From Bacteroidales bacterium (GTDB lineage: Bacteria > Bacteroidota > Bacteroidia > Bacteroidales > VadinHA17), in assembly GCA_038252165.1 (NCBI GenBank), contig JBBSAP010000001.1, positions 1,530 to 65,529 of the forward strand: DNA of 64,000 nt, in the 5' to 3' direction. The position numbers and the translations under genes were made by a program. Shown here piece by piece: positions 13,321 to 64,000 of this stretch; the stretch's first letter is position 1, and each line of letters opens with the position of its first letter. The notes beneath the pieces are model-generated. The model was given only the letters and a program-made list of their open reading frames with translations. It was not told where the DNA came from and searched no databases.

Positions 13321-13343
13321 TAGTATTTGTTTGTATCTTAATC

Positions 13344-13447
13344 TAGTCCTCAGTCTTCAGTCTCCAGTCTCCAAATTGCCGACTGCCGACTGCCGACTGC
13401 CGACTGCCGACTGTAGACTGCCAACTGCGGACTGCCGACTGTGGACT
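13344..13447. repeat. Heptad-repeat hairpin between HK3 and RR3 (plus strand: CAGTCNN x4, apex AAATTGCC, GACTGNN x10)
   Basis: Cores at 13344-13369 and 13381-13447. In transcript (minus) sense the order is HK stop, CAGTC units, apex, GACTG units, RR start, as in cassettes 1 and 2. Confidence 0.85.
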
Positions 13448-15461: not shown

Positions 15462-15511
15462 GAAAGTTTTATCGTTTTTCTGCTTATCTGGTCATTATTG
15501 TATTTATATGT

Positions 15512-41621: not shown

Positions 41622-41823
41622 GTGATGCAGTAATTTTTTAACGAATTTTTATAAAAGTTTGTCAGCATGCAATGAAATGTTGATAATGGATACCATTTAG
41701 GGGAAGGAGCAAATACATTTCAGAAAACGTTTGAAACATAGTCCTAATTATTTTTAACCTGAAAATCAATGAATCTCTGTGAAAATAAATGAAATACGGA
41801 GATTGAAATACCAATGCTTTTTT

Positions 41824-41831
41824 TATTTTTG
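41824..41831 (+). promoter_or_regulatory. Bacteroidota -7 box candidate (TATTTTTG) upstream of maltose cluster
   Basis: Exact TAnnTTTG 52 nt upstream of the ATG at 41883. Confidence 0.3.
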
Positions 41832-41882
41832 ATAGATTTACCTATACTTCTGACCTATTCTCTTCGAACTAAATCAGTCAAT

Positions 41883-44068: not shown

Positions 44069-44069
44069 T

Positions 44070-46406
44070 ATGAACAACTGTTATAAACTGGATGAATGGC
44101 TTATTATTGAGGAGGGATTTCACCCTGAGTCTAACAGGGAATCGGAAAGCATATTTTCGATCGGGAACGGATATATGGGACAGAGAGCGAATTTTGAAGA
44201 GCATTATTCAGGCGATTCACTGACCGGCAGTTATATCGGAGGGGTTTATTACCCCGATAAGACCAGGGTGGGATGGTGGAAAAACGGCTACCCGGAATAC
44301 TTTGCCAAGGTCCTGAATGCTCCGAAATGGATAGGTATAGATATTTGTATAAATAATATTCCTGTCGATCTTTCTTCGGCGAAGATCAACTCCTTCACCA
44401 GAACCCTGAACATGAAAGAGGGATATCTTGACAGGAAATTCACAATTGCAGTTGCCAGGCATAAAACTCTTGAATTCAATGCCAGGAGGTTTCTCAGTAT
44501 GTCGGAGCCAGATACGGGGGTAATAAAGTATTCAATTTGCTCAATTGACTTTGAAGGTGTAATTGATTTTACAGTATACCTTGATGCCGATGTGAGGAAT
44601 GAAGATGCAAATTATGGCAAGAAATTCTGGAAAGAGGTTTCGAGGGAAATAGATGCGGAACACGGAATAATTATTGCACGCACCTTAAAGACCGATTTCC
44701 ATGTTGCAACAGGAATGACCTTCATCCTTTTAAGAAACGGGAAAGAAATCGATGTAAATTCCAGTGCAATTGACCGTAATAAATATGTTGGAAATGCTTT
44801 TTCGGAAGAAATAAAACCTGGTGATGAACTGACACTGATAAAATATACCTCAGTCCTCTTTTCCCTTAACAATTCAAAGGAGGATTTAATGGGTGACGTT
44901 AAAAAACGTCTTAAGGAAGTGTCGTCCGAAGGATACAACATGCTTTTTTCCAGACACATTAAGGAGTGGGAAAAGATATGGAAGGCTTCGGATATTGTGA
45001 TTGAAGGTGATATTGCAGCCCAGCAGGCTATCAGGTTCAATATTTTCCAGCTCAACCAGACTTACACAGGGAAGGATGAACGGCTTAATATCGGTCCGAA
45101 GGGTTTTACCGGCGAAAAATACGGGGGAAGCACCTATTGGGATACAGAGGCTTTTGTCCTGCCGTTTTTTCTGAAAACAGCAGATCAGAAAGTGGTCAGG
45201 AACCTGTTGCTTTACAGGTATAAGCATCTTGAAGCCAGTATCAGAAACGCCTCAACGCTTGGTTTTAAGAACGGTGCAGCCCTTTACCCCATGGTTACAA
45301 TGAATGGTGAAGAGTGCCATAATGAATGGGAAATAACCTTCGAGGAAATCCACAGGAATGGCGCAATTGCTTTTGCCATCTTCAACTATATAAGGCATAC
45401 AGGCGACGATGATTATCTTGCCGATTACGGGCTGGAGGTCCTGATAGCAATCTCGAGGTTCTGGAGCCAGCGGGCAACCTGGTCGGATAACCTGAAAAGG
45501 TATGTCATATTAGGCGTTACAGGGCCTAATGAGTATGAAAACAATGTCAGCAATAACTGGCATACAAATTCAATGGCGTCATGGACATTGTCATATACTA
45601 TGGAATGTCTGCTGAAAGTCCGGAAGGAGGCGCCTGTTAAGTACAATGAACTTATCAGTAAAACCTGCTTTGACTTTGCGGGAGAGACCACTCTCTGGCA
45701 GAAGATAATTGATAAACTTCACATGCCGTTTGACAGCAGGAGAAAAGTTTTTCTTCAGCAGGATGGGTTTCTTGATAAGGAATTAATGCCTGCTGATAAA
45801 ATTCCTTCAGGGGAGCGGCCGATAAACCAGCACTGGTCGTGGGACAGGATCTTACGGTCGTGCTTTATAAAGCAGGCTGACGTACTTCAAAGCCTGTACG
45901 TATTTGAAGATAAATATGATACAGAAACCATAAGGCGGAATTTTGATTTCTATGAACCGATGACTGTTCATGAATCTTCACTATCAGCCTGCATACATTC
46001 CATTCTTGCTTCCCGGATAGGGAATATTGATAAGGCTTATGAGCTTTATCTTAGAACTGCAAGGCTCGACCTCGACGATTACAACAATGAAGTAGGCGAC
46101 GGCCTCCACATAACAAGCATGGCAGGCACCTGGCTGGCAATAGTTGAAGGTTTTGGCGGCATGCGGATAAATGATGGTAAGGTTTGCATAAATCCGCTTA
46201 TCCCCGGTCGATGGAAATCGTATTCATTCCATGCACGGTTCCGGGGGATCCTTTTTGAAGTAAAAGTGAATCACAAAGAAATAATTGTAAATAATTTGTC
46301 GGCGAAGAATCTGATTATGGTCGTCCATGGGAATGAATACATATTTTCCGGATATGAGATTAAGTCTGTTGAATTGATTCCCCCTTCTAAAAGGGCCAAA
46401 GTTTAA
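44070..46406 (+). CDS. GH65 maltose (or kojibiose/trehalose) phosphorylase
   Basis: 778 aa with the typical GH65 layout. GPNEYENNVSNNWHTN region. Adjacent to pgmB. Confidence 0.88.
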   Translation: MNNCYKLDEWLIIEEGFHPESNRESESIFSIGNGYMGQRANFEEHYSGDSLTGSYIGGVYYPDKTRVGWWKNGYPEYFAKVLNAPKWIGIDICINNIPVDLSSAKINSFTRTLNMKEGYLDRKFTIAVARHKTLEFNARRFLSMSEPDTGVIKYSICSIDFEGVIDFTVYLDADVRNEDANYGKKFWKEVSREIDAEHGIIIARTLKTDFHVATGMTFILLRNGKEIDVNSSAIDRNKYVGNAFSEEIKPGDELTLIKYTSVLFSLNNSKEDLMGDVKKRLKEVSSEGYNMLFSRHIKEWEKIWKASDIVIEGDIAAQQAIRFNIFQLNQTYTGKDERLNIGPKGFTGEKYGGSTYWDTEAFVLPFFLKTADQKVVRNLLLYRYKHLEASIRNASTLGFKNGAALYPMVTMNGEECHNEWEITFEEIHRNGAIAFAIFNYIRHTGDDDYLADYGLEVLIAISRFWSQRATWSDNLKRYVILGVTGPNEYENNVSNNWHTNSMASWTLSYTMECLLKVRKEAPVKYNELISKTCFDFAGETTLWQKIIDKLHMPFDSRRKVFLQQDGFLDKELMPADKIPSGERPINQHWSWDRILRSCFIKQADVLQSLYVFEDKYDTETIRRNFDFYEPMTVHESSLSACIHSILASRIGNIDKAYELYLRTARLDLDDYNNEVGDGLHITSMAGTWLAIVEGFGGMRINDGKVCINPLIPGRWKSYSFHARFRGILFEVKVNHKEIIVNNLSAKNLIMVVHGNEYIFSGYEIKSVELIPPSKRAKV

Positions 46407-46519
46407 GTCCCGGCATGTTATGGCAGGATAGTGAAGGAGCCAGACTGCTGAGGAGAGTGAGGTGGAGTAAGGTGGATGTAAGAAATAGAAGACAATATAC
46501 AAAAGTAAAAAGCTAAATT

Positions 46520-47905
46520 ATGGAAAGACTACCTGTAAGTGTTCTTGTACTGTTACTGGCAATCGCAATCGCTCTTATGATAGCCGGCTGTTCACTTTTT
46601 GGGAAAAAGAAAGAGCTTAAGCCTTTTATTTCGGAAGTTGTACATCCGGAATGGTCGAAAAATGCCGTCATTTATGAAGTGAATGTCAGGCAATATACCG
46701 ATTCCGGCACATTCAAAGCGTTTGAGAAACATCTTCCCAGGCTGAGGCAAATGGGTATTGACATTCTCTGGTTTATGCCTTTACACCCGATAGGCCTTCC
46801 TAATCGTAAAGGTGAGCTGGGGAGTTATTATTCAGTTGCTGATTATCTGGGAGTTAATCCTGAATTCGGAACCATCGAAGATTTCAGGAGGATTATTTAC
46901 AAGGCTCATGGGCTGGGAATGCATGTTATCATGGACTGGGTGCCGAACCATACCTCATGGGATAATCCTCTTACAATATCACATCCGGAATGGTATAAGA
47001 GAGACTCAACCGGCAAGTTTACACCACCAACAGGCACAGACTGGACCGATGTCATTCAGCTGGACTGGTCACAGACGGGGCTGCAGGATTATATGATAGA
47101 TGCTTTCAAATTCTGGGTCAATATTGGAGCAGACGGTTTCCGGGTCGATCATCCGCACAATACTCCTAAAGAGTTCTGGGAAAGGGCAAGAAACGAGCTT
47201 GAGATGATAAAACCTGTTTTTATGCTTGCCGAATATGAGGGAGACAAAGGATTCACAGAGAAGGGTTTTGATATGGATTATGCATGGGAGATGCACCATC
47301 TTATGAACAGCATAGCTCAGGGAAAGGATAGTGCAAGTGCATTACTTAAGTATTTCCGTAAGGAGTGGGCAGTCTCTCCGGATAATGCATACCGTCTTAT
47401 GTTCCTTACAAATCATGATGAAAATTCATGGGCTGGTACAATCGATTCATTGATGGGTGATTCACAGAGGGCATTCGCGACACTGATATTTACAGCTCAT
47501 GGAATGCCACTCATCTATAGCGGACAGGAAGCATGTCTCGATAAAAAGCTTAAATTCTTCTTCCGTGATCCAATTGAATGGGATTCCTGCGGGATGACTG
47601 GTTTCTATTCAGACCTTATAAAGCTGAAGAAAAACAATCATTCCCTCTGGAATGGTGCGTTTGGTGGTAAAATGAACAGTATAAAGACAAACAAGGGCAA
47701 TAAGATCTTTGCGTTTTACAGGGAAAAGGATGAAAACAGGGTTGTTGTAGTGCTTAATCTTACTAAAAAGCCGGTTTCATTTAAACCTGTTATAAAAGGC
47801 ATTGAGGGAGATTACACTGAATATTTCACAGGTCAGAAAACAGAATTCAATAAAAGTTTAAACATTGCACTTGATCCATGGGGTTATAAGGTTTACCTAA
47901 GATAA
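46520..47905 (+). CDS. GH13 alpha-amylase family lipoprotein
   Basis: Lipobox MIAGC. DWVPNH, GADGFRVDH, MLAEYEG, FLTNHDEN. Confidence 0.85.
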   Translation: MERLPVSVLVLLLAIAIALMIAGCSLFGKKKELKPFISEVVHPEWSKNAVIYEVNVRQYTDSGTFKAFEKHLPRLRQMGIDILWFMPLHPIGLPNRKGELGSYYSVADYLGVNPEFGTIEDFRRIIYKAHGLGMHVIMDWVPNHTSWDNPLTISHPEWYKRDSTGKFTPPTGTDWTDVIQLDWSQTGLQDYMIDAFKFWVNIGADGFRVDHPHNTPKEFWERARNELEMIKPVFMLAEYEGDKGFTEKGFDMDYAWEMHHLMNSIAQGKDSASALLKYFRKEWAVSPDNAYRLMFLTNHDENSWAGTIDSLMGDSQRAFATLIFTAHGMPLIYSGQEACLDKKLKFFFRDPIEWDSCGMTGFYSDLIKLKKNNHSLWNGAFGGKMNSIKTNKGNKIFAFYREKDENRVVVVLNLTKKPVSFKPVIKGIEGDYTEYFTGQKTEFNKSLNIALDPWGYKVYLR

Positions 47906-47910
47906 AAGTT

Positions 47911-49758
47911 ATGACAAGATCACTCAGATTTCAGGCTCTTTTCATGCTGATCACAGCATGTACCAGTTTAATCTCAGCCCAGAAGATTGACCGTATTGAA
48001 CCTCCCTCATGGTTCACCGGGATGAAGGAAACCTCTCTTCAGCTGATGGTTTATGGCAAAGAAATAGGATCGTTCAAGGTTACTGCTGATTATCCCGGCG
48101 TTAAGATCACCACACTTGTAACAACTGAAAATCCGAATTACCTGTTCGTCAACATGGATATCAGCCAGCGGGCAGTTCCAGGCGACATCAGGCTGACTTT
48201 CACCCGCGGCAAACTGAAACTGACGCACAATTATCCGCTTCTGGCACACCCTTCTGAATCCGCCAGGGGCTTCGACGCTTCTGATGTTATCTATCTCCTT
48301 ATGCCCGACCGGTTCTCAAATGGTGATCCGGGAAATGACAATGTAGCAGGTATGCTTGAGCAGGCAAACAGGAGCAATCCCAACGGCCGGCACGGAGGAG
48401 ACCTCAAAGGCATATCAGAACATCTCGATTATATCAAGGACCTGGGTGCAACAGGCATCTGGTTAAATCCTTTCCTTGAGAACAACCAGCAGGCTTATTC
48501 ATATCACGGTTATTCAATAACCGATCTTTACCGTGTTGATCCGAGGTACGGAAGCAATGATGAATTTAAGAATCTGATCTCAAAGGCACATAATGTGGAT
48601 TTGAAGCTGATGATGGATATGATAAACAACCATATAGGATCGGGGCACTGGTGGATGAAGGACCTGCCCTCGGCTGACTGGCTGCATCAGTTCAGTGAGT
48701 TCACACGTACCAACTACCGGGCTTCAACCCTGATGGATCCGTATGCTTCCGCAGGCGATGAGGAATTAATGGAAAAAGGCTGGTTCGACAGAACCATGCC
48801 TGACCTCAATCAGAGCAATCCGCTTGTTGAGACGTACCTTACCCAGAACAGCCTTTGGTGGATAGCTTACTTTGGCATCGACGGCATAAGAATGGATACC
48901 TATCCTTACCCCGAAAAGAATATGATGTCGAGATGGGCAAAAAGGATCACTGATGAATTTCCCGGTTTCTTTGTAGTTGGAGAGGTATGGTATCAGCAGG
49001 AGGCGCTCACAGCCTATTGGGCACTTGATAAGATCAACCAGGATGGCTATCAGTCGAACCTTCCGTCATTGACCGATTTCCCGCTTTCGCTGGCCACCCA
49101 CAGGGCTTTCAATGAGCCTGACAACTGGACAGACGGATTAGCAAGACTGTATCTGATACTTTCACAGGATTTTCTCTATCCGCATCCGCTTCGTAACGTT
49201 ATCTTTCTTGATAACCACGATCTCACAAGGTTCTTTACCCAGACAGGCATACGGCTTGATATCTACAGGATGGCTCTTTCATTTATCCTTACAACCAGGG
49301 GCATACCTCAATTTTATTATGGTACTGAAATCGTAATGCAGGGAGACAAAAACCGTGGAGACGGATTTCTGAGAGAAGATTTTCCGGGAGGATGGCAGGG
49401 AGATTTAAAAAATGCCTTTTCGGGACAAAACCTTACACCAACAGAAAAAGAAGCTTACGATTTCACCAAAAAGCTTTTAAACTGGAGAAAAGGGAAAGAT
49501 GTTATCCATACCGGAATGCTTAAACATTTTATACCTGAGAATAATCTGTATGTTTATTTCAGGTATAATGACAAAGAAACTGTTATGATTGTCCTTAATA
49601 ACAGCGATAAGGAGACCCGTACAATAACCAGTAAAAGGTATGCTGAAGGAATGAATGGGTTTACAAGAGGTACAGAAATAATTACGGGAACTGAGATTAA
49701 TAATCTGACATCATTTGAGATTTCCCCGAAAACGGCAATGATAATTGAATTGAAATAA
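47911..49758 (+). CDS. GH13 cyclomaltodextrinase/neopullulanase-like enzyme, secreted
   Basis: Signal peptide. N-terminal cyclomaltodextrinase-type domain. DMINNH, GIDGIRMDT, VVGEVW, FLDNHD. Confidence 0.85.
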   Translation: MTRSLRFQALFMLITACTSLISAQKIDRIEPPSWFTGMKETSLQLMVYGKEIGSFKVTADYPGVKITTLVTTENPNYLFVNMDISQRAVPGDIRLTFTRGKLKLTHNYPLLAHPSESARGFDASDVIYLLMPDRFSNGDPGNDNVAGMLEQANRSNPNGRHGGDLKGISEHLDYIKDLGATGIWLNPFLENNQQAYSYHGYSITDLYRVDPRYGSNDEFKNLISKAHNVDLKLMMDMINNHIGSGHWWMKDLPSADWLHQFSEFTRTNYRASTLMDPYASAGDEELMEKGWFDRTMPDLNQSNPLVETYLTQNSLWWIAYFGIDGIRMDTYPYPEKNMMSRWAKRITDEFPGFFVVGEVWYQQEALTAYWALDKINQDGYQSNLPSLTDFPLSLATHRAFNEPDNWTDGLARLYLILSQDFLYPHPLRNVIFLDNHDLTRFFTQTGIRLDIYRMALSFILTTRGIPQFYYGTEIVMQGDKNRGDGFLREDFPGGWQGDLKNAFSGQNLTPTEKEAYDFTKKLLNWRKGKDVIHTGMLKHFIPENNLYVYFRYNDKETVMIVLNNSDKETRTITSKRYAEGMNGFTRGTEIITGTEINNLTSFEISPKTAMIIELK

Positions 49759-55031: not shown

Positions 55032-55282
55032 GGTATCAATTGCCCCTCAATTCGGTTGCAAAGATAATTAATGTTTTAATATAATCAAGGTATAAAAGCA
55101 GATTTTTTTATTTTATTACAAAGTAACACAAAGGTAATCACCAAGTAACACTAATGTTTTTCATTATAAGCACCCCTTTGTTTACATTTGTGATTTTCTT
55201 CGTGAACCTTTGGGGTAAAAAGCTAAGAGCTGACAGATATTGAATAACTCAATGTGTCAAGCTCATTATTTATGTCTTACAG

Positions 55283-56224
55283 ATGACCAGGGATATATAT
55301 ACAGAAGACGAGATTAACCTTCTGTCCAACTGCACCCTTTGTCCCCGTGAATGCGGAGTGAACAGGTTTGAGGGAGGCACAGGATACTGCAGGGCTGACG
55401 CCGGCATGAACATTGGTTCGATCTGCATCCACCGGGGCGAGGAACCGGCAATAAGCGGACCAGGCGGAATCTGCAATGTTTTCTTTTTGGGATGCAACCT
55501 CAGGTGTATCTATTGTCAGAACTACGATATAAGCAGACCGGGAGGGGATCGCAGAAGGAGTGTCTCCAGCCTGAATGAAACCCTTGATCATATAGAAGAG
55601 ATCCTTTCCGATGATATCAAGGCGATCGGATTTGTTTCGCCTTCCCATGTTGTGCCCCAGGTAAAAGCCATTATAAGAGGATTAAATGCAAGAGGATTGA
55701 ACCCTGCCACTGTCTATAATACAAACAGTTATGACAAGCCTGAAGTGATTGATAGCCTTGACGGTATGATTGATGTGTATCTTCCCGATTATAAATATGT
55801 TACCGCTTCTCTGGCGGAAGAACTTTCAGATGCTTCCGATTATCCGCTGGTAGCACTCAGGGCGATTAAAAGGATGTATTATCAGAAAGGATCAGCACTT
55901 CCCCTGGATAAAGAGGGCAGGGCAGAAAACGGGATGCTGATAAGGCACCTTGTTCTGCCAGGACATACTGAGGAGAGCGAACAAATGCTGAAAATTCTTG
56001 CTGAAGAACTTTCACCCGGAGTTAGCCTGTCTCTTATGTCGCAGTACCATCCTACTCCTTATGTCAGTGGCCATGCCAATCTGAAAAGGACCCTGTATAA
56101 GGCAGAATACGGAGTCGTTGTCAAAGCTATGGAAGATCTGGGATTTCGTAACGGATGGATCCAGGATATGGAGAGCTACCGGAACTACAGACCGGATTTC
56201 AGGAGGAAACATCCGTTTGAATAA
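55283..56224 (+). CDS. Radical SAM protein, PflX-like (glycyl-radical activase-related)
   Basis: NCTLCPRECGVNR..GTGYCRA N-terminal Cys motif plus CNLRCIYCQN (CxxxCxxC). Confidence 0.75.
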   Translation: MTRDIYTEDEINLLSNCTLCPRECGVNRFEGGTGYCRADAGMNIGSICIHRGEEPAISGPGGICNVFFLGCNLRCIYCQNYDISRPGGDRRRSVSSLNETLDHIEEILSDDIKAIGFVSPSHVVPQVKAIIRGLNARGLNPATVYNTNSYDKPEVIDSLDGMIDVYLPDYKYVTASLAEELSDASDYPLVALRAIKRMYYQKGSALPLDKEGRAENGMLIRHLVLPGHTEESEQMLKILAEELSPGVSLSLMSQYHPTPYVSGHANLKRTLYKAEYGVVVKAMEDLGFRNGWIQDMESYRNYRPDFRRKHPFE

Positions 56225-56227: not shown

Positions 56228-56298
56228 GCCCCCCAACCCCCCTGAAGGGGGGCTTTCATAATGACTGCAAAACTGCAAAACTGCATGACTGCATGACT
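56228..56298. repeat. C6/G6 hairpin repeat element followed by an ACTGCAWR 8-mer tandem repeat (x4)
   Basis: GGCCCCCCAACCCCCCTGAAGGGGGGCTTT (56228-56256), then actgcaaa actgcaaa actgcatg actgcatg act (56264-56298). Confidence 0.75.
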
Positions 56299-56306: not shown

Positions 56307-57023
56307 TTACATGAATTTTTCCCTTTTCTGCAGATTGAAAAGTGCGGCGAGCAGAAACAATATTGTTCCGGTTATCATTATTATCCTGTTCTTCAGTGTT
56401 ATGATAGCCCATGTTGTTTCATTAACGTCGTAAGCCGGATCGAATGGATTCAGAAAAATATTCCATTGACTTTTGCGCAGCGGTTCCTCAAGGATCAGAA
56501 AAAAGATTCCAAATATTATCATTATCACCGCGGTCCCATTGCCGTTTCTGATTACGGTGGAGAGCATGAATGCCATCATCCCCAGGAAAAGGACCGGAAT
56601 CATTACCTGTACCGTTACCATGAAAAACCGGAATTTGACAATCAGAACTGAAGAAAGAAATGTGAATACCAGCATAATCAGGAATGCAATTACAAAAATA
56701 AGTATTATCCTGACCAGCCAAACTTTGTACCTGTAATTTGGAATGCCGAAGAGTATTTCGATGGTCCTTGCATCCTGGTCGTTCTGAATTCCGAAAACTG
56801 ACGGGTAAAATACAAGCAGGATGCCGGAAAAGAGAAAAACACCATAAAGATGCGACATCCTTGAAACATCATTTGAAAAAACATAGATTACAGAAAGTCC
56901 CAGGTAGAATACCAGGGATCCGGTGAGGAACCAGATAAATTTATTTGCAAAAATGATTCTCAGATTATAGAGTATCATCTTCTGTATTAAAGTGAAGTAA
57001 TTATATAAAGTGTTGGTTTTCAT
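56307..57023 (-). CDS. ABC-2-type transporter permease (6 TM)
   Basis: Six hydrophobic helices. DQDARTIEILFGIP resembles the E..GT.E.L motif of ABC-2 permeases. Lies directly downstream of the fused ABC ATPase. Confidence 0.6.
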   Translation of the reverse strand: MKTNTLYNYFTLIQKMILYNLRIIFANKFIWFLTGSLVFYLGLSVIYVFSNDVSRMSHLYGVFLFSGILLVFYPSVFGIQNDQDARTIEILFGIPNYRYKVWLVRIILIFVIAFLIMLVFTFLSSVLIVKFRFFMVTVQVMIPVLFLGMMAFMLSTVIRNGNGTAVIMIIFGIFFLILEEPLRKSQWNIFLNPFDPAYDVNETTWAIITLKNRIIMITGTILFLLAALFNLQKREKFM

Positions 57024-57130: not shown

Positions 57131-60100
57131 TCATTCAACCTGATTTTTGTCTTTTTTTCTAAGCAGCCACAAATATGCATCTTCCAGATTCGGAGTTGCA
57201 TTTACAGCGTTTTCCCTGGGTTTTAATTCTGAAATGACTCTCATTCTTACATTTTCACCCTCCGACATATGATGCACTACAAGATGTTCCTCTACGAATT
57301 TGCCGAATTCGCCGGCAGGTATCTTAAACTGCCATACATGTCCTTCGGCCTCTTTTGTCATATCCGATGGCTTCCCAAGGAATCTCAGCTTTCCCTTGTT
57401 CAGAACTGCCACCTGATTGCACGAGCTTGAGATATCCTCAATTATATGTGTCGAAAAGATCACAATACGTTCACGGCTCAGTTCGACAAGCAGGTTCCTG
57501 AACCTTATCCTTTCCCTGGGATCGAGTCCGGCGGTAGGTTCATCAACCACCAGGATCCTTGGCAGGTGAAGCAGGATGAGGGCAATACCCATTCTCTGTT
57601 TCATACCTCCTGAGTACGACCCAATATATTCATGCCTCCGCTCTTCCATATGAACGGCTTTCAGAACATATGTGACCCTCTCTTCCCTTGACCGGGCATC
57701 AATATTATTCTTAAGCATTGCCTGGTAATGAAGATATTCGTGAGCGGTCATGTTTTCATAGCTTCCGAATTCCTGGGGAAGATAGCCAATAAGTCCCTGC
57801 AGCTCCTCGCGTTTTTTCTGGGTATCAAGCCCATTGATCCAGACTTTTCCATAGCTCTGTTCAAGAATTCCACAGATGATCCTCATAAGCGTGGTTTTTC
57901 CTGCTCCGTTTGGTCCAAGCAGACCAAACATCCCGTTACCGATATTGAGTGAGACACAGCTCAGGGCTTTAAATGGCTTCTTCTTTTTACCGATCAGAGG
58001 AACAGCTGCAACCAACCTATAGATAGTTTTTCTTATCTCCCTGAACTTTCCTTCCAGCCTGTATATATCAATGTTTTCCTCACCCAGCTTAATACCGGTT
58101 TTATATATAAACAGTCCGGTAAACCATAGAAATCCGAGTATAAGCACCACTGCAATGTTGTTCCATTTAAGCTGGAACATTACAAGGTTCAGCAGGGGGA
58201 TTATCCAGAAGACAATGAAATCGATAGCCGGAATAAGTCTCTTCAGATGCTTTCTGTTCCCTTTTGCAGAAAGGTTTGTAAAGAGTTCTCTGAACTGGTT
58301 CCAGACCGCTGAAAGAAAGAACCAGGTTCCGAGGCTGAAAAGGAATATCCAGAATCCTTTCTGAAGGTAGAAATACGTGAAATAGATCATAAATACAATA
58401 AGCGGGAACTGCCATGATACCTGGGTCATGTCTTTCCATTTCCTGAAATGCTTTTCGAGCCCCAGCCTCTCCCTGATTCTTGCACCTGCTTTCCATTCAC
58501 GCGACCACCTGTTTTCTCTTTCGTATATCTTGACAAGACTCTGCACATAAATGTTTATTGGCTCATCAGGGGGGATCACTGTCTCTCTGGCCTTTCTGAG
58601 ACTGTTCATCACGAACCATGTTGATGCAGGCACGAGTATTACTGAAAGGATAGTGGTTATAAGTTTCCAGAGGAATTTATCAATATGGTTGTAGATAAGA
58701 AATATAAGCAAGCTAAAGATTATCAGCTGAAAAGCTTTGTTCTTCCAGCTGAGCGATCGGAACCAATCAAGCGAATTTTCAAGTCCGGAATAAAACGTCG
58801 GAATGAAGATCAGTGTCAGGAGTGTGCTGAGGGTCAGTCCGCCGATAACGGTAATTGCAAATGATGCTCCGATGACTGATACAAACTCAGCCTTCCCCAT
58901 GGCCAGCGGGAACATAGCAATAACGGTCGTAGAGGCGGTTATTAGAATAGGTCTTATTCTTGCCATGCCTGCTGTCATTAATGCTCTTGAACGCCTGTAA
59001 CCCCGTTTCCGAAGTATGTTTGTATAGTCAATCAGTATTATGCCATTATTTACCACAACTCCCAGAAGGATAAGGAAGCCTGTCAGTGTATTGGCGCTGA
59101 GGAGAGTATTTCCGGTGATGATCAGGGCAATAAGAGATCCAAGCGCTGCCAGTGGGATGCTGAACAACAGGACAAATGGTATGGAGAGCGACTCGAAAAC
59201 AGCCGCCAGGATCATGAATATCAGGAGGAATGCTATCCCGATCAGATTGTAGAATTCCTTAAGCTGGTTCTCTTCATGGACAACTTCGACAGCAATCCCT
59301 GAAGGTATATTTAATCTTGATACGACTGATTCTATTTCAGCACGGGCACCTTCAAGCAGATCTTTCGAAGACTTTATTTCATCCTTGAAATTGTAGGTAA
59401 CTGTTACTCTCTTTTCCTGGTTTTCCCTGTGAATATTACCCATCCCGTATGAGAAAATGATATTTGCAAGCTCTTCCATTTCCATCACAGCCCCGGTGGC
59501 GCTTGTCACCTCCAGGCTCTTAAGATCGTCAATTGTTTTTTCCCTGTTCAGGCCTGCCGTGGCATCCTCTTCCGAATATTTGATTATTATGTCATAGCTT
59601 TCTGTACCCTGCTTGAAGGTGGCGCCTGAAGAGTATTCCCTTCCGAATGTTGAAAGAGCAGCTCCCAGATTGGCCAGTGTGAAATTATTCCTGCCGATAA
59701 AATCCATATCAAAATTCAGCCTTACCTCGGGTGTATTATCCTGCACATTTATATTGACATTATTAATTGTCTCCAGATCATCAATGTACGACCTGATATC
59801 ATCAGCAAGGTTCTTCATCTGTTCAAAATTCTGGCCCTTGATTATCACGCTTTCGGGCTGTGAACCTATACCGAGAAGGATGCTAAAATCGGCTCCGGGA
59901 TTTCCGCCCCCTGCACCGCCGTCTCCGCCGGTAAAACCTCCGCTGGCAGAAATTTCATCCATGCTGATCTCGGCAGAGGAGATCTTCTTAGTCTTTTCTG
60001 AGATATCATTTTTAATCTCAGGTAGGCTCCTTTTACTTGTCTTGTCCCATTCTTTGTAAAGATTGATTGTTACCGTAGCCTTATCTTCTTCAATCCGGCT

Positions 60101-61879
60101 CACCAGATCCTCCTTTTCGGGGATTGAAGCAAGCCTCGATTCAATTTCTGCGACCAGGGCATCGGTTTTCGCAAGTGTTGACCCGGCTGGCATTGTAACG
60201 CTTAGTCTGAACTCAGGTGTCTCGATTTCACTGTTTGTGGTCAGGCTCAGCGTGAGGCTTATCAGAAGAGCTGCAAAGAACACTACCAGCGTCCCGATGA
60301 TAGTAGATGCAGGGTTTCTCATGCTTGCCTTAAGCACGAGGTGGTATGCCTGTATCAGCCTGTCGTGGATGGAGAGTTTTTTGAAAACTTCTGATTTACC
60401 CTCGGAGGGACCCGACAGAATATAAAATGTTGCCATCGGGATGATAAGCATGGCAACTGCAAGCGAAACCAGAAGAGTTGAAATAATGGAGACACTTATG
60501 TTCTTTCCGATTAGTTTAATAAGGAAATTGGTCGTAAAGATAAATGGGAAAAAGACGATCACAGTTGTAAGGGTTGATGCAAAAATTGCACGGATAACCT
60601 CTTTGGTCCCTTGCTTTACAGCTTTTTCCGGATCCCTGCCCGATCCGGCCAGACGGTAAATATTTTCCAGGACCACTACCGAGTTATCGACAAGCATCCC
60701 TATGGCAAGGGCTATTCCGACAAGGGTAAGGCTGTTGATCGTAATGTTGAAAGCATAGAAGAAATTGAATGCTGTATAGACTGAAACCGGTATTGAAATT
60801 GCAATCACAGTAACAAGCCTGATATTCCTCAGAAAGAACCATAGGATCAGAATCGCCAGCAAACCACCTGTTATTGCCAGGTTGATTATCTGATTTATGT
60901 TCTTTTCCATTGTCTCGGCACTGTTGTTCTGAACGACTATTTCGATCCCGGAGGCAGCCAGATCCCTGTTAAGCTTCTTAACCTGGTCAGTGGCAGTGTG
61001 TGAAAGTCCTATAAGATTGGCCTGTTTATCATTTACAAGGTTGATCGTTACCTCGTCCATCCCGTTAACCCTGCTGTAAGAACTTGGTTCCTTGACTCCA
61101 TAAAAAATCTCAGCAATATCCCTGAGCAGAACCGGCCCGTCCCGTTTGACAATAATATTTCCTATATCCCTGACATCGGTATAGTTGGAAGTTATGTTGA
61201 CATACACTTCATTATTGCCGTCATAAACTTTACCGGCAAAGGTCTTATCCTTTCCGTTATTGTTCAGCAGGGTACTTACCTGGTTCATAGTGATGCCAAG
61301 GGACTTGCATGCTTTTTTATTCAGCCTTACCTCAATTGAGCTTTCCTTTCCCCCGTAAACCTGGACGCCGGCAATACCGTCGATATTCTCAAATTCAGGT
61401 TTGATCTCTCTGTCAGTTATGTTTCTTATCCTGTCGACGCCTCCTTCTCCTCTCACCTGAAGCGACATAAACTGATTTGTCAGCTGTTCAAGATCGAGTT
61501 TTATCACATTAATAATAAACTCTTCAGGGATAGAGCTTTTTATAAGGTCGATTTTCTCCTGGAGCTTGAGATTTGCATATTTAAGGTCGGAATTTTTGAC
61601 ATAATAGACTATTATTGTCCCGTACCTTGAAGTGATGTTTGATTCTATCTTTTCGACACCTTCCAGTGTCCCGATAGCTCCTTCGATAGGAATGATTGCC
61701 TGGCTCTCAATATATGAAGGGTCAACCTCAAGCGGAGTTCCCACCTGTACGAAAAGAGTTGGAAACTCAGCATTGGGTATCAGCTCGACAGCAAGCTTTT
61801 TATAGGAAACAAACCCGAGCAGTGACAGCCCGAGGAACAGCATACTGATGAGGATCCTTCTTTTAAGTATAAAATCCAT
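57131..61879 (-). CDS. Fusion protein: complete RND (AcrB-type) permease + 2 TM + ABC ATPase interrupted by a 4-TM insertion
   Basis: 1582-aa uninterrupted ORF. RND motifs GMLVDNSVVVLEN (TM4) and VVVNNGIILID (TM10). ABC motifs GPNGAGKTT, LPQE, YSGGMKQR, ILVVDEPTAGLD, STH. Confidence 0.85.
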   Translation of the reverse strand: MDFILKRRILISMLFLGLSLLGFVSYKKLAVELIPNAEFPTLFVQVGTPLEVDPSYIESQAIIPIEGAIGTLEGVEKIESNITSRYGTIIVYYVKNSDLKYANLKLQEKIDLIKSSIPEEFIINVIKLDLEQLTNQFMSLQVRGEGGVDRIRNITDREIKPEFENIDGIAGVQVYGGKESSIEVRLNKKACKSLGITMNQVSTLLNNNGKDKTFAGKVYDGNNEVYVNITSNYTDVRDIGNIIVKRDGPVLLRDIAEIFYGVKEPSSYSRVNGMDEVTINLVNDKQANLIGLSHTATDQVKKLNRDLAASGIEIVVQNNSAETMEKNINQIINLAITGGLLAILILWFFLRNIRLVTVIAISIPVSVYTAFNFFYAFNITINSLTLVGIALAIGMLVDNSVVVLENIYRLAGSGRDPEKAVKQGTKEVIRAIFASTLTTVIVFFPFIFTTNFLIKLIGKNISVSIISTLLVSLAVAMLIIPMATFYILSGPSEGKSEVFKKLSIHDRLIQAYHLVLKASMRNPASTIIGTLVVFFAALLISLTLSLTTNSEIETPEFRLSVTMPAGSTLAKTDALVAEIESRLASIPEKEDLVSRIEEDKATVTINLYKEWDKTSKRSLPEIKNDISEKTKKISSAEISMDEISASGGFTGGDGGAGGGNPGADFSILLGIGSQPESVIIKGQNFEQMKNLADDIRSYIDDLETINNVNINVQDNTPEVRLNFDMDFIGRNNFTLANLGAALSTFGREYSSGATFKQGTESYDIIIKYSEEDATAGLNREKTIDDLKSLEVTSATGAVMEMEELANIIFSYGMGNIHRENQEKRVTVTYNFKDEIKSSKDLLEGARAEIESVVSRLNIPSGIAVEVVHEENQLKEFYNLIGIAFLLIFMILAAVFESLSIPFVLLFSIPLAALGSLIALIITGNTLLSANTLTGFLILLGVVVNNGIILIDYTNILRKRGYRRSRALMTAGMARIRPILITASTTVIAMFPLAMGKAEFVSVIGASFAITVIGGLTLSTLLTLIFIPTFYSGLENSLDWFRSLSWKNKAFQLIIFSLLIFLIYNHIDKFLWKLITTILSVILVPASTWFVMNSLRKARETVIPPDEPINIYVQSLVKIYERENRWSREWKAGARIRERLGLEKHFRKWKDMTQVSWQFPLIVFMIYFTYFYLQKGFWIFLFSLGTWFFLSAVWNQFRELFTNLSAKGNRKHLKRLIPAIDFIVFWIIPLLNLVMFQLKWNNIAVVLILGFLWFTGLFIYKTGIKLGEENIDIYRLEGKFREIRKTIYRLVAAVPLIGKKKKPFKALSCVSLNIGNGMFGLLGPNGAGKTTLMRIICGILEQSYGKVWINGLDTQKKREELQGLIGYLPQEFGSYENMTAHEYLHYQAMLKNNIDARSREERVTYVLKAVHMEERRHEYIGSYSGGMKQRMGIALILLHLPRILVVDEPTAGLDPRERIRFRNLLVELSRERIVIFSTHIIEDISSSCNQVAVLNKGKLRFLGKPSDMTKEAEGHVWQFKIPAGEFGKFVEEHLVVHHMSEGENVRMRVISELKPRENAVNATPNLEDAYLWLLRKKDKNQVE

Positions 61880-61887: not shown

Positions 61888-64000
61888 TTATAAAATAGTT
61901 ACAGGATCAGGGGAGCTCTTTTTCTTTCCGCTTACAAAATCTCCAAAGCTGTCGAATACCCAGTAAACACACGGTATCACTATCAGTGTGAGCAGTGTGG
62001 AGGATATTAATCCGCCGATCACTGCCAGAGCCATTGGTGATCTCAGCGATGCGCTTTCGCCAATCCCTATTGTCAGAGGAAGAAGAGCAAGTATCGTAGT
62101 AAGGCTTGTCATAATGATCGGCCTTATACGCTGTGATCCTGCAATTAATATTGCGTCTCTTTTGTTTATTCCGGCCTCCCTGAGCTGATTTATGCGGTCG
62201 ATAAGGATAATTGCATTGTTGACCGCAATACCAGCGAGCATAATGATCCCGATATATGCCATCATATTCAATGGTTTACCCAGAAGAAAAAAAGCGAAGA
62301 CTGTTCCCACGCCAGCAAGGGGGATTGTGAGCATTATGACGAAGGGTTGTATTATCGATTCAAATTGCGAGGCCAGAACCATAAATACAAGTACCAGTGA
62401 AAGGATAAGCGCAAACGTAAGATTCGAAATTGACTCCTTCCTTTTAAGTTCCTCTCCCGTGAATTCCATCTTATAGTCAACCGGGAGAGCGATTGATCTC
62501 AGGGAAGATTCTGCCTCTCTTACAACCTTATCAAAGGGCTGGTTGCTTTTTGCCATGGCATATACATAGCAGGTCCTTGCCTGGTTGCGTCGTGTTATTT
62601 CCCGGGGACTTGTTACTGTCCTTATTTCAGCAAGCTCGCTGAGAGGCACCTTAATATTTCCCGCTGTAATAATCAGATCATTAAGCTGGTTAAGCGATAT
62701 TTTTCCCAGCTTAATGGTTATATCCTTAAGTTCACCATCCTTTTCAAAGGTTCCGGCAGAGGAACCTTCAAGATAACTCCTGATCTGGTTTATGACGCTC
62801 TCAACAGTAACATTATAATAGCTGGTCTTAAACCGGTCAATTGCTACTTCAACCTCAGGGGTACCTTCATCCATCGAAGTAGTAACATTATAGAGCCCTT
62901 TGTTCTGCTCAAGAATTGCTTTTGACTCTTTAAGAATTCTTTCAAGTTCAATATATTCTTTCCCTGATATTTCCAGGGCAAAAGGCGCCTCTGATGTTCC
63001 AAGCGCCGACTCAAGAGCGGTCTCTTCCCGTGTAAAAGTTGCTTCAAGGCCCGGAACCGTTTTAAGGTAATTTTCCACAAGGCTTATTGCATTTTCAGTT
63101 TCCGATGCAAATTCATCAGCAAGAATTACTTTAAGTGAAGCCGTATTTTCGCCTTTTACGTTAGATGTCTGACTTAAAGTTGAAGTATTGTCTTCACCTG
63201 ATTGGGTATATATCAATTTAAGCTTTTCACCGAGAAGGTCTTTTATTATTTCTTCAGTTTTTATTGCCGTGCTGTTTGTCCTGTAAAGGCTTGTGCCTTC
63301 CGGAAGCTTTAGTCCTACAGTAAATTGTGCTGATTCTGATCGGGGCATGAACTCGCTTCCAAGGCGGGGGACCATTAATCCTGCTATTGTTAAAACAATA
63401 ACAGAAAGCAGGATTACCAGGTTGCGTTTTTCAAGTATTTTTCCAAGGAATCCCTTGTACCATCTGAACTGTAAGGCCGTGATAGTAACGTTTTTTTTGC
63501 TTTTTTCCGGAAACAGAGTTGATACAAGCATAGGGATAACCAGCATTGCCACTAATAGAGATGACAGTAATGCAAAAGCGACTGTCCATGCCTGATCACG
63601 GAACATCTCGCTCGACGCTCCATGCAGGTACACTATTGGCAGGAAAACAACAATTGTCGTCACAGTTGAGGCTATGATTGCTCCTCCGACCTGGCCAGTA
63701 CCTGTTATTACAGCTTCATGCAAAGGCATACCCTCCTCCCTGTTCCTGGTTATATTTTCGAGTACCACAATAGCATTATCCACAAGCATCCCGGCACCAA
63801 GCGCCAATCCTCCAAGAGTCATTATGTTCAGAGTCAGATGGCTGAAATACATAAGATTAAAGGTTGCAATGATCGAAATGGGAATTGCAATGCTTATCAC
63901 CAGGGTTGTGCCTATCCTTCTCAGGAAAACAAAAAGAATGACAACAGCGAGTATGATACCTATTATGAGTGTATTTTTTACTTCACCGATTGCATTATTA
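61888..64000 (-). CDS. RND (AcrB-type) efflux permease, N-terminus beyond the window edge
   Basis: The frame stays open to nt 64000 (..NNAIGEVKNTLIIGIILAVVILFVFLRRIGTTLV upstream of the tracked GTG). GMLVDNAIVVLEN, IAVNNAIILID. Stop lies 8 nt before the next gene. Confidence 0.9.
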   Translation of the reverse strand, partial: NNAIGEVKNTLIIGIILAVVILFVFLRRIGTTLVISIAIPISIIATFNLMYFSHLTLNIMTLGGLALGAGMLVDNAIVVLENITRNREEGMPLHEAVITGTGQVGGAIIASTVTTIVVFLPIVYLHGASSEMFRDQAWTVAFALLSSLLVAMLVIPMLVSTLFPEKSKKNVTITALQFRWYKGFLGKILEKRNLVILLSVIVLTIAGLMVPRLGSEFMPRSESAQFTVGLKLPEGTSLYRTNSTAIKTEEIIKDLLGEKLKLIYTQSGEDNTSTLSQTSNVKGENTASLKVILADEFASETENAISLVENYLKTVPGLEATFTREETALESALGTSEAPFALEISGKEYIELERILKESKAILEQNKGLYNVTTSMDEGTPEVEVAIDRFKTSYYNVTVESVINQIRSYLEGSSAGTFEKDGELKDITIKLGKISLNQLNDLIITAGNIKVPLSELAEIRTVTSPREITRRNQARTCYVYAMAKSNQPFDKVVREAESSLRSIALPVDYKMEFTGEELKRKESISNLTFALILSLVLVFMVLASQFESIIQPFVIMLTIPLAGVGTVFAFFLLGKPLNMMAYIGIIMLAGIAVNNAIILIDRINQLREAGINKRDAILIAGSQRIRPIIMTSLTTILALLPLTIGIGESASLRSPMALAVIGGLISSTLLTLIVIPCVYWVFDSFGDFVSGKKKSSPDPVTIL

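What the first reader, a model, noticed from the sequence alone, without database searches (positions are those of the whole stretch)
57131..61879. One polypeptide fuses a complete RND permease to an ABC ATPase
A single uninterrupted 1582-codon ORF on the minus strand carries both transporter types. Residues 1 to ~1040 form a full 12-TM RND/AcrB-type permease with two large periplasmic loops (TM4 GMLVDNSVVVLEN, TM10 VVVNNGIILID). The ORF then continues through two more hydrophobic helices (aa ~1049-1092). It ends in a complete ABC nucleotide-binding domain: Walker A GPNGAGKTT at nt 57890-57916, Q-loop LPQE, signature YSGGMKQR, Walker B ILVVDEPTAGLD and H-loop STH. The extra helices number 2 + 4, an even count, so the ATPase stays on the cytoplasmic side like the RND C-terminus. 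The fusion is therefore topologically coherent and not a simple read-through of two adjacent genes. RND pumps use proton-motive force and ABC pumps use ATP. I know of no characterised transporter that joins both engines in one chain.
Basis: partly seen in the sequence, partly recalled or inferred. Interest (0 to 1): 0.85.

Follow-up and report, generated by a model that had tools for sequence, protein, structure and literature searches.

The report
Efflux pump permease fused to ABC ATPase
One 1582-residue membrane protein joins a complete proton-driven RND efflux permease to a working-looking ATP-driven ABC motor domain; the fusion is conserved across several bacterial phyla within a fixed seven-gene cluster, and I found no published study of it.

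Summary
ORF 57131-61879 (-) encodes a full RND permease (Pfam ACR_tran, aa 2-1031, E 4e-159) followed by an ABC nucleotide-binding domain (NBD) with every catalytic motif. It is not an artefact: more than 150 database clusters and 25 of 26 complete genomic loci keep one open frame, including four cultured isolates.

Its first beta-strand (aa 1108-1119) lies between the 2 and the 4 extra helices, so the four helices are an insertion inside the NBD. A shorter subfamily of about 1440 aa, seen in MAGs labelled Omnitrophota and Sumerlaeota/BRC1, has no extra helices.

The gene always sits in the same seven-gene cluster:
- a free paralogous NBD
- a large ABC-2 permease, tentatively with an M1-aminopeptidase-like periplasmic domain
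- an outer-membrane factor
- a membrane-fusion protein
- a second, unfused RND permease
- the fusion itself
- a small ABC-2 permease

Most likely a tripartite RND pump is covalently tethered to an ABC-2 exporter, giving two-step, two-energy export. This is inferred, not shown. The substrate is unknown. I found no literature on it.

Verdict: a real, uncharacterised new variant. Interest is high.

The parts
61888..64000 (-). RND1: the second, unfused RND permease. It runs off the window end; the full length is 1050 aa in the 94%-identical locus L001. Its stop codon lies 8 nt upstream of the fusion's ATG.
   Evidence: Pfam ACR_tran E 1.2e-144, profile positions 362-1020. Full gene seen in L001. 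About 28% identical to the RND part of the fusion. Adjacent to the fusion in every locus that extends far enough upstream.
57131..61879 (-). RND2::NBD fusion gene, 1582 aa plus stop.
58775..61879 (-). RND permease domain, aa 1-1035: 12 TM helices and two large periplasmic loops.
   Evidence: ACR_tran 2-1031, E 3.7e-159. Nearest solved structures are MdtB (9lyq) and ZneA. Invariant D398/N399 in TM4, N944 in TM10 (N945 nearly invariant) and R974.
58607..58735 (-). Extra helical hairpin TM13-TM14, aa 1049-1091. It returns the chain to the cytoplasm.
   Evidence: Hydropathy. AF2 helices 10-30 and 34-63 of the model. Positive-inside charge pattern. No Pfam or ABC-2 similarity.
58523..58558 (-). NBD strand beta1 with the A-loop tyrosine, aa 1108-1119 (INIYVQSLVKIY).
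   Evidence: I1110 and K1117 are invariant and Y1119 nearly invariant. It aligns with the contiguous beta1 of the free paralogue, IKIENLNKIY. AF2 strand at model residues 75-84.
57974..58522 (-). Insertion inside the NBD, aa 1120-1302: an amphipathic helix, four TM helices (aa ~1154-1259, nt 58103-58420) and a return helix.
   Evidence: AF2 helices. Least conserved segment, 25% identity, but length and hydrophobicity are kept. Absent from the ~1440-aa subfamily, which has a ~45-aa soluble insert at the same site. No PDB counterpart.
57350..57973 (-). NBD core from beta2 onward, aa 1303-1510. Walker A is at nt 57890-57916; Walker B with the catalytic Glu is at nt 57521-57556.
   Evidence: ABC_tran E 1.2e-26. 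K1328, Q1369, S1423-M1426, D1446, E1447 and H1478 are invariant in 15 sequences at 34-54% identity. Most conserved part of the protein, 70%. Closest to ABCA4/3/1 NBDs, TM_1403, NosF and LptB.
57134..57349 (-). C-terminal accessory domain of the NBD, aa 1511-1582.
   Evidence: Modelled as a beta-rich domain. It matches the NBD-plus-C-terminal-domain fold of TM_1403 (4yer) and NosF. It is shared with the free paralogue, ending in ...PNLE[DH]AY....
56307..57023 (-). Small 6-TM ABC-2-type permease, 238 aa, 107 nt downstream of the fusion.
   Evidence: Six hydrophobic helices. Present directly after the fusion in all 25 loci that include the fusion's 3' flank, overlapping or within tens of nt in most. 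ABC2_membrane_2/3/4 give 6 family matches among the 19 orthologues, best E 4.9e-6. hhalign to the TM domain of the large permease: E 2e-4 over 216 columns, but probability only 46%.
56229..56249 (-). Terminator-like GC-rich hairpin just after the small permease gene; probable operon end.
   Evidence: This is a consensus scan only.

Best explanation
The ORF encodes the RND2 subunit of a conserved seven-gene envelope machine. A tripartite RND efflux pump is covalently tethered, through the cytoplasmic C-terminus of RND2, to one ATPase subunit (NBD-B) of an ABC-2-type transporter.

The pump consists of an outer-membrane factor, a membrane-fusion protein and two paralogous permeases, RND1 and RND2. 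The other parts of the ABC transporter are encoded in the same cluster:
- a free paralogous ATPase (NBD-A)
- the small 6-TM permease immediately downstream
- a large permease with 6-7 TM helices and an ~860-aa periplasmic domain

Proposed mechanism (inferred). The ABC module uses ATP to move or extract a substrate from the cytoplasm or inner leaflet to the periplasmic side. The RND module, using proton-motive force, captures it there and expels it through the outer-membrane channel. The covalent tether, reinforced in the Bacteroidota/Latescibacterota branch by six extra anchoring helices, fixes co-assembly, stoichiometry and proximity.

Shown: the fusion, its conservation, the intact ATPase motifs, the split NBD, and the invariant gene set.

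Inferred: that the fused NBD docks on the ABC-2 permeases and not on the RND, that RND1 and RND2 form a heterotrimer, and that substrate is handed over. The substrate is unknown.
For: 1. The fusion is real and under selection. Pfam finds both domains. All 120 listed clusters at 78-94% identity are 1540-1604 aa with both domains. The frame is open in 25 of 26 complete loci, isolates included.
2. The linker exists only in fused proteins. A search of 1.84 billion representatives with the linker alone gave 95 hits, and every full-length one is about 1550-1585 aa with the linker at about 1033-1290.
3. The ATPase looks functional. Walker A Lys, Q-loop Gln, signature, Walker B Asp-Glu and H-loop His are invariant. 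The NBD core is the best conserved region, at 70%.
4. A normal set of ABC partners is always co-encoded. The free NBD, large permease, OMF, MFP, RND1, fusion and small permease are syntenic across Bacteroidota wherever the contig extends far enough. Latescibacterota locus L026 has the same order but no OMF hit in the fetched stretch.
5. Both permeases hit Pfam ABC-2 families in several orthologues: 9 of 16 for the large one (best E 3.3e-7) and 6 family matches among 19 for the small one.
6. In the distant ~1440-aa subfamily the same parts recur, but the NBD/permease adjacencies are swapped: free NBD next to the small permease, large permease next to the fusion. This fits all four acting together.
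7. The free and fused NBDs are sister paralogues at 41-44% identity and share family-specific motifs.
8. The RND parts keep the same TM4/TM10 residues as their unfused relatives, so nothing suggests the RND has lost its own energy coupling.
Against: - No complex was modelled or measured, so who contacts whom is inference from gene content.
- RND pumps are trimers and NBDs work as dimers. The stoichiometry is unresolved: it could be one fused chain plus the free NBD, or two fused chains per trimer.
- Support for the small permease being ABC-2 is modest (best E 4.9e-6; 6 family matches among 19 members; hhalign probability 46%).
- Both NBDs are fully canonical, so there is no degenerate site pointing to an obligate heterodimer.
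- Nothing identifies a substrate.
- The fused RND2 is highly diverged from RND1 (28% identity) and carries an unusual Gly-rich periplasmic loop, so it may not be a conventional drug-binding protomer.
Confidence: 0.55

Rival explanations
1. ATP-driven or ATP-gated RND. The fused NBD acts directly on RND2, either powering its conformational cycle or licensing it. It would dimerise with a second fused chain or with the free NBD beneath the RND trimer. The RND would then be partly or wholly ATP-dependent.
For: The covalent link is to the RND, not to an ABC permease. In the short subfamily only about 40 residues separate RND TM12 from NBD strand beta1, which puts the ATPase right under the RND membrane domain. 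Both RNDs lack the AcrB D408 and K940 equivalents, having D-N in TM4 and N-N in TM10.
Against: The D-N/N-N pattern also occurs in 42 ordinary unfused RND relatives, so it is not linked to the fusion. D398 (the AcrB D407 equivalent) and R974 remain invariant, as does a TM11 Thr that I read as the T978 equivalent. Two ABC-2 permeases, the normal partners of this NBD class, are always co-encoded. No RND element resembling a coupling helix was identified.
Confidence: 0.2
2. Co-assembly tether without hand-off. Two independent transporters, an ABC-2 exporter and an RND pump, share a regulon. The fusion only ensures co-localisation or equal dosage, with no substrate channelling.
For: Gene fusions often mark no more than shared pathway membership. 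All parts are individually complete.
Against: The fusion and the seven-gene set persist from Bacteroidota to Latescibacterota. The distant ~1440-aa subfamily (MAGs labelled Omnitrophota, Sumerlaeota/BRC1) keeps the same parts in a different order. One lineage elaborated the link with six extra helices. Both points argue that physical coupling matters.
Confidence: 0.2
3. Artefact: a misassembly, frameshift or read-through of two adjacent genes, or a decayed non-functional NBD remnant.
For: The window is probably from a metagenome-assembled genome, and reads could not be mapped here. One related locus, L019, has a broken frame.
Against: Independent assemblies from many projects and four isolates keep the single frame. 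The linker is found only in fused proteins. Catalytic residues are invariant and the NBD is the most conserved region.
Confidence: 0.01

Closest known systems
MdtABC-TolC of E. coli (tripartite RND pump with two paralogous permeases forming a heterotrimer)
   Same: Two tandem RND permease genes share one membrane-fusion protein and use an outer-membrane factor. MdtB is the nearest solved structure to the RND part (9lyq, E 6e-65). The review PMC8277102 cites MdtBC as an example of the rare heterotrimers.
   Different: No Mdt subunit carries an ATPase. RND1 and RND2 here are only about 28% identical. TM4 and TM10 carry D-N/N-N where MdtB has DD/K. Heterotrimer formation was not tested here.
ABC-2 / type V exporters with separate NBDs (DrrAB, GldAFG, NosDFY, YbhFSR, ABCA family)
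   Same: The NBD is closest to ABCA4/3/1 NBDs, TM_1403, NosF and LptB in sequence and fold, including the C-terminal accessory domain. The best NCBIfam NBD models are GldA and DrrA. The partner permeases are 6-TM ABC-2-like. As with NosDFY, one component has a large periplasmic part. The NosDFY comparison is from my own knowledge of that family.
   Different: The NBD is fused to an RND permease and split by a four-helix membrane insertion. Scores fall below the GldA and DrrA family cut-offs (166.7 against 402.6 bits; 163 against 312 bits). One permease carries a tentative M1-aminopeptidase-like periplasmic domain.
MacAB-TolC (ABC-driven tripartite efflux pump)
   Same: ATP hydrolysis in the cytoplasm is linked to export through an MFP and an OMF.
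   Different: MacB has an N-terminal NBD fused to a 4-TM permease with a periplasmic domain between TM1 and TM2, and no RND component (review PMC8277102). Here the NBD is C-terminal to a 12-TM RND, and the ABC permeases are of the ABC-2 type.
SecYEG-SecA with SecDF (an ATP motor and an RND-superfamily proton-driven device working on one substrate)
   Same: This is a precedent for ATP-driven and proton-driven modules cooperating in sequence on the same cargo. The proton-driven part belongs to the RND superfamily (review text).
   Different: The Sec components are separate proteins and move unfolded polypeptides. There is no MFP or OMF, no ABC fold and no fusion.
Functional cooperation between single-component inner-membrane pumps and tripartite RND pumps (two-step efflux; from my own knowledge, not tested here)
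   Same: The logic is the same as the proposed relay: one transporter clears the cytoplasm into the periplasm and an RND pump clears the periplasm.
   Different: In the known cases the pumps are unlinked proteins encoded at separate loci. Here the two modules are one chain in one operon.

Membership tests
RND permease, AcrB/HAE-like (Pfam ACR_tran) | Twelve TM helices with two large periplasmic loops, matching the family profile end to end. | tested here: met
   ACR_tran aa 2-1031 on profile positions 3-1018 of 1021, E 3.7e-159. Hydropathy agrees.
RND permease, AcrB/HAE-like (Pfam ACR_tran) | AcrB-type proton relay: TM4 Asp-Asp, TM10 Lys, TM11 Arg. | tested here: not met
   D398 and R974 are kept, but the D408 equivalent is N399 and the K940 equivalent is N944; all are invariant in the family. 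RND1 has the same pattern, as do 42 unfused relatives. This is a subfamily variant and gives no evidence of lost coupling. AcrB residue numbering is from my own knowledge.
RND permease, AcrB/HAE-like (Pfam ACR_tran) | Operon partners: a membrane-fusion protein and an outer-membrane factor. | tested here: met
   An OEP (493 aa) and a HlyD-type MFP (350 aa) lie upstream in L001. Both are conserved in the Bacteroidota loci that extend far enough upstream. The OMF is not seen in the fetched part of the Latescibacterota locus L026.
NCBIfam RND_permease_2 (NF033617) subfamily | Score above the curated cut-off of 1250 bits. | tested here: not met
   451.3 bits. It is the best RND model but far below the cut-off.
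ABC ATPase (Pfam ABC_tran) | Walker A, Q-loop, ABC signature, Walker B with catalytic Glu, and H-loop. | tested here: met
   GPNGAGKT, LPQE, SGGMKQR, VVDEPTAGLD and STH are all invariant across 15 sequences at 34-54% identity. ABC_tran E 1.2e-26.
ABC ATPase (Pfam ABC_tran) | A contiguous soluble domain, with beta1 and beta2 joined by a short turn. | tested here: not met
   About 180 residues, including four TM helices, separate beta1 (aa 1108-1119) from beta2 (aa 1303-1313). No PDB chain covers the insert.
GldA (TIGR03522, gliding-motility ABC ATPase) and DrrA (TIGR01188) | Score above the curated cut-offs of 402.6 and 312.45 bits. | tested here: not met
   166.7 and 163.1 bits. It has the same NBD class but is not a member.
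ABC-2-type exporter (NBD plus 6-TM ABC-2 permeases) | Co-encoded 6-TM permeases that match the ABC2_membrane families. | tested here: inconclusive
   The window's own 238-aa protein has no Pfam or NCBIfam hit. Among its 19 orthologues there are 6 ABC2_membrane family matches (best E 4.9e-6), and 9 of 16 large-permease N-termini hit them (best E 3.3e-7). The two families align at hhalign E 2e-4 but probability 46%.
MdtBC-type heteromeric RND pump | Two different RND permeases in one trimer. | not testable with these tools
   Only the gene arrangement is met: tandem RND1 and RND2 with a single MFP.
MacB-type (type VII) tripartite ABC pump | An N-terminal NBD fused to a 4-TM permease with a periplasmic domain between TM1 and TM2. 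| tested here: not met
   The architecture here is RND, then 2 TM, then a split NBD. The permeases are 6-7 TM and ABC-2-like, and the large periplasmic domain is C-terminal to them.

The most novel reading that the evidence does not exclude
The cluster builds one physical machine that couples ATP hydrolysis and proton-motive force. A heteromeric ABC-2 transporter (free NBD plus RND-fused NBD, small plus large permease) is docked on an RND1/RND2 heterotrimer. A cytoplasmic or inner-leaflet substrate would then pass directly into the RND entry and out through the outer-membrane channel. That would be a continuous cytoplasm-to-exterior efflux route with two energy inputs. An alternative form of the same reading is an RND pump whose cycle is gated by ATP. 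Either would be a transporter class not described so far.
Probability: 0.35. Interest if true: 0.9.

Novelty: new variant of a known kind. Interest (0 to 1): 0.74.

Why it matters
RND pumps are driven by protons and take substrate mainly from the periplasm or outer leaflet. ABC exporters are driven by ATP and take it from the cytoplasm or inner leaflet. They are treated as separate efflux classes that cooperate only loosely.

A conserved covalent link between the two, inside a fixed seven-gene cluster found in several phyla, would be a natural experiment in coupling them. It makes three questions directly testable:
- whether two-step efflux can be hard-wired
- how a dimeric ATPase is matched to a trimeric RND
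- whether ATP can gate an RND pump

Cultured carriers exist (Prolixibacter, Draconibacterium, Parabacteroides massiliensis, Marivirga), so genetics and cryo-EM are feasible. The membrane insertion inside an ABC NBD is also structurally unusual; no solved structure covers it.

Tried and rejected
1. The fused RND has lost its proton relay and is ATP-driven. Rejected as an argument: the D-N/N-N pattern is shared by the unfused RND1 and by 42 unfused relatives.
2. The six extra helices are a cryptic ABC-2 membrane domain. Rejected: hhalign probability is below 1% against both permease families, and there is no Pfam hit.
3. The neighbouring radical-SAM gene (55283-56224, +) belongs to the system. 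Rejected: it is syntenic only in close relatives.
4. The NBD is a GldA or DrrA orthologue. Rejected: scores are far below the cut-offs.
5. Exact-sequence look-up of the window protein found nothing, so context was taken from the 94%-identical P0001 and from P0044.
It was rerun with permitted rows, but the 1143-aa model is of low confidence (pLDDT 62.6), so the M1-like assignment is tentative.
7. Closest unfused NBDs (43-47% identity, in Anaerolineae, Bacillota, Acidobacteriota and others) are about 290-320 aa. The ORFs that follow them (411-687 aa) were not annotated. They gave no functional clue.
8. Seven literature searches found no description of an RND-ABC fusion. The library covers open-access papers and bioRxiv only, so absence is not proof.
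Full report
**1. The observation**

The minus-strand ORF 57131..61879 is uninterrupted for 1582 codons. Pfam places a complete AcrB-type RND permease at aa 2-1031, covering profile positions 3-1018 of 1021 (E 3.7e-159). It places an ABC ATPase domain at aa 1311-1450 (E 1.2e-26). NCBIfam agrees. The best RND model is RND_permease_2 and the best NBD models are GldA and DrrA, all below their curated cut-offs.

The Walker A coordinates (nt 57890-57916) are exact by codon arithmetic.

A hydropathy scan scores peaks for four of the six extra helices after the RND domain: TM13-14 (aa 1049-1091) and TM17-18 (aa 1215-1259). TM15-16 (about aa 1154-1199) are aromatic-rich and fall below the scan's threshold; they come from the AF2 secondary structure. 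Charges follow the positive-inside rule, and the periplasmic loops are only 4-7 residues long.

**2. It is not an artefact**

- A search of 5.8 billion proteins returned, as its best 120 clusters, proteins of 1540-1604 aa at 78-94% identity. All carry both Pfam domains. They come from NCBI, JGI, ENA and Logan assemblies.
- A scan of one genome per GTDB species found the fused gene in cultured organisms: Prolixibacter bellariivorans ATCC BAA-1284, Draconibacterium mangrovi, Parabacteroides massiliensis and Marivirga tractuosa. It also found it in many Bacteroidales, Marinilabiliales and Rikenellaceae MAGs, and at 32-34% identity in Candidatus Latescibacterota.
- In 25 of 26 complete loci the frame is open across both domains. 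Only L019, a generally broken locus, is interrupted.
- A search of 1.84 billion representative proteins with the 261-aa linker alone gave only 95 hits. Every full-length hit is about 1550-1585 aa with the linker at residues about 1033-1290. The rest are fragments, and no clearly stand-alone form was found; 526-aa P0139 could be a fragment or a stand-alone form.

**3. Anatomy, refined**

An alignment of the window protein with 14 full-length representatives at 34-54% identity (A1) shows these residues invariant:
- Walker A Lys1328
- Q-loop Gln1369
- signature S1423-G-G-M
- Walker B Asp1446 and catalytic Glu1447
- H-loop His1478

The NBD core is the most conserved segment (70% mean identity). 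The RND membrane domains are at 56-63%, the periplasmic domains at 34-42%, helices 13-14 at 31% and the four-helix block at 25%.

A motif of the form P-I-x-I-x-x-x-N-L-x-K-I-Y...R-E-W (aa 1107-1129) lies between helix 14 and helix 15. In it I1110 and K1117 are invariant and Y1119 is nearly so. The free paralogous ATPase of the same cluster has the contiguous sequence IKIENLNKIYPNGNYAIKDLTLDIPNGMFGLLGPNGAGKS. The motif is therefore NBD strand beta1 with the A-loop tyrosine. The four helices are an insertion of about 180 residues between beta1 and beta2.

An AlphaFold2 model of aa 1036-1582 (pLDDT 82.7, pTM 0.66) gives exactly this order: two helices, a strand, an amphipathic helix, four long helices, a return helix, and then a standard NBD with a C-terminal beta-rich domain. 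I could not read the coordinates, so the beta1-beta2 pairing itself is not verified.

Foldseek matches only the NBD and its C-terminal domain (TM_1403, ABCA7/4/3, NosF, LptB). Nothing in the PDB covers the insertion. The extra helices have no detectable relation to ABC-2 permeases or to any Pfam family.

**4. A second, simpler subfamily**

Loci L027 and L029 encode 1438- and 1437-aa fusions. In these the RND's last helix is followed, after about 40 residues, by beta1 (PLQIEIDHLTRIY). A soluble insert of about 45 aa follows, and then the rest of the NBD. There are no extra helices.

A search with this protein found about 45 clusters of 1408-1470 aa. The few that carry source names are labelled Candidatus Omnitrophota, Hinthialibacter and candidate division BRC1/Sumerlaeota. 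It also found further forms of about 1530-1620 aa. Where my scan could locate the junction, the linker is either about 85 aa with no helices or about 240-300 aa with several.

The fusion itself is therefore the conserved feature. The six helices are an elaboration in one branch.

**5. Context**

In the window, RND1 ends 8 nt before the fusion's ATG. The 238-aa gene starts 107 nt after the fusion's stop. A terminator-like hairpin follows that gene.

Related contigs show the full cluster: free ABC ATPase (about 297 aa), 1143-aa protein, OMF (493 aa), MFP (350 aa), RND1 (1050 aa), RND2::NBD, and the 238-aa protein.

tblastn shows this order in every Bacteroidota locus that extends far enough. The Latescibacterota chromosome L026 has the same order, but no OMF hit in the fetched stretch.

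*The small permease.* The 238-aa protein has six hydrophobic helices. ABC2_membrane families give 6 matches among its 19 orthologues (best E 4.9e-6).

*The large permease.*
- It has seven N-terminal helices, and 9 of 16 orthologues hit ABC2_membrane_2 (best E 3.3e-7).
- It aligns with the small permease over 216 columns at hhalign E 2e-4, but with probability only 46%.
- Its periplasmic part was modelled with low confidence (pLDDT 62.6).
- All 50 top Foldseek hits are M1 aminopeptidases: IRAP at E 3e-12, and a Deinococcus M1 with target-normalised TM-score about 0.43.
- Reading the sequences, I see no HExxH zinc motif.
- I therefore treat it, tentatively, as an inactive M1-like binding domain.

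*The distant subfamily.* L029 has the same seven kinds of parts, but the adjacencies differ: MFP, free NBD, small ABC-2 permease, RND1, large permease, fusion, OMF.

*Excluded.* The radical-SAM neighbour is syntenic only among close relatives and is not part of the system.

**6. What it most likely is**

The cluster always contains two sister NBDs (41-44% identical, both canonical), two ABC-2-type permeases, two RND permeases, one MFP and usually one OMF. The simplest reading is a tripartite RND pump, possibly an RND1/RND2 heterotrimer as in MdtBC, tethered through RND2 to an ABC-2 transporter.

Swapped NBD-permease adjacencies in the two subfamilies suggest that all four ABC parts act together. 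A heterodimeric NBD pair, one free and one fused, would also reconcile a dimeric ATPase with one fused chain per RND trimer. Two fused chains per trimer is equally possible.

The proposed mechanism is a relay. ATP-driven movement of a substrate to the periplasmic side is followed by proton-driven expulsion through the OMF. The steps from 'the NBD docks on the ABC-2 permeases' onward are inference.

**7. Rivals**

*Direct ATP drive or gating of the RND.* This remains possible. The tether is short in the simple subfamily, and both RNDs have Asn in place of AcrB D408 and K940. However, the same D-N/N-N pattern occurs in RND1 and in 42 unfused relatives. D398 and R974 are invariant. The normal ABC partners are always present.

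*A mere co-localisation tether without hand-off.* This cannot be excluded.

*Artefact or decay.* This is excluded by sections 2 and 3.

**8. Comparison with what is known**

- The RND part works like, and is most similar to, MdtB-type HAE pumps. It falls below NCBIfam subfamily cut-offs and lacks the full AcrB relay.
- The NBD belongs to the ABCA/DrrA/NosF class. It is not a GldA or DrrA member by score, and it is not contiguous.
- It is not MacB-like.
- SecDF with SecA is a conceptual precedent for sequential ATP and proton-driven action. It is unfused and handles different cargo.
- Public annotations are generic: 'efflux RND transporter permease subunit', 'ABC transporter ATP-binding protein', and JGI's double COG name.
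- Seven full-text searches and the comprehensive 2021 review of tripartite systems gave no description of an RND-ABC fusion. The library is limited to open-access papers and bioRxiv.

**9. Verdict**

This is a real, widely conserved and apparently unstudied architecture: a new variant built from two known kinds of transporter. It has an unusual membrane insertion inside the ATPase. Function and substrate are unknown. The tethered two-step model is the best-supported hypothesis, at about 0.55. Interest is high, because specialists would not expect the combination and because cultured carriers make it testable.

Noticed in passing
window 59864-59944 (-), aa 646-672 of the fusion: A Gly-rich, probably flexible loop (SGGFTGGDGGAGGGNPGADFSILLGIG) lies in the second periplasmic domain of RND2. 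A Gly-rich stretch followed by an invariant G-I-G (G670, G672) occurs in all family members. MdtB aligns poorly there.
   Followed up: partly
L001 717-4148 (outside the window, upstream in the same cluster): A 1143-aa protein has a 7-helix ABC-2-like membrane domain, an ~860-aa periplasmic region and a Golvesin_C domain at its end. The top 50 Foldseek hits of the periplasmic region are all M1 aminopeptidases, and no HExxH motif is visible. Most sources call it 'hypothetical protein'. The model is low-confidence (pLDDT 62.6).
   Followed up: partly
L029 9989-14302 and L027 15035-19351: A shorter RND::NBD subfamily (about 1440 aa) has no extra membrane helices. The cluster has a different gene order: MFP, NBD, small ABC-2 permease, RND1, 922-aa permease, fusion, OMF. 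Related MAGs are labelled Omnitrophota, Hinthialibacter and BRC1/Sumerlaeota.
   Followed up: partly
L022 (Marivirga tractuosa ac6) 2449-5773 and 8509-11608; L019: In Marivirga strain ac6 the large permease and RND1 each match in two different frames, while the fusion is intact. This could be frameshifts, pseudogenes or sequencing errors. In MAG locus L019 several cluster genes, including the fusion, are broken.
   Followed up: no
window 1861-17623: Three pairs of a ~670-710-aa histidine kinase (HisKA + HATPase_c) and a ~660-703-aa TPR + PD40 beta-propeller protein. Two pairs are on the + strand and one on the - strand. This is an expanded paralogous sensor module.
   Followed up: no
window 34130-41563 (+): A 2477-aa SprA homologue (SprA_N, E 6e-205), the type IX secretion translocon. 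It fits a Bacteroidota origin and is also a neighbour of the cluster in L003.
   Followed up: no
window 41814-49758 (+): A maltose/maltodextrin utilisation block: an MFS transporter, a GH65 phosphorylase-type enzyme, a 461-aa ORF that was not examined, and a cyclomaltodextrinase-like alpha-amylase.
   Followed up: no
window 55277-55648 (-) and L001 14710-14958: Short ORFs that are probably spurious. The 123-aa ORF lies antisense within the radical-SAM gene. The 82-aa ORF called in L001 overlaps the end of the fusion. Neither has family hits.
   Followed up: partly
protein P0128 (representative library): A 442-aa database protein joins an unrelated N-terminus beginning MTGVQTCALPIY to a linker-like segment and an unrelated C-terminus. 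It looks like a chimeric or low-quality assembly product and was ignored.
   Followed up: no
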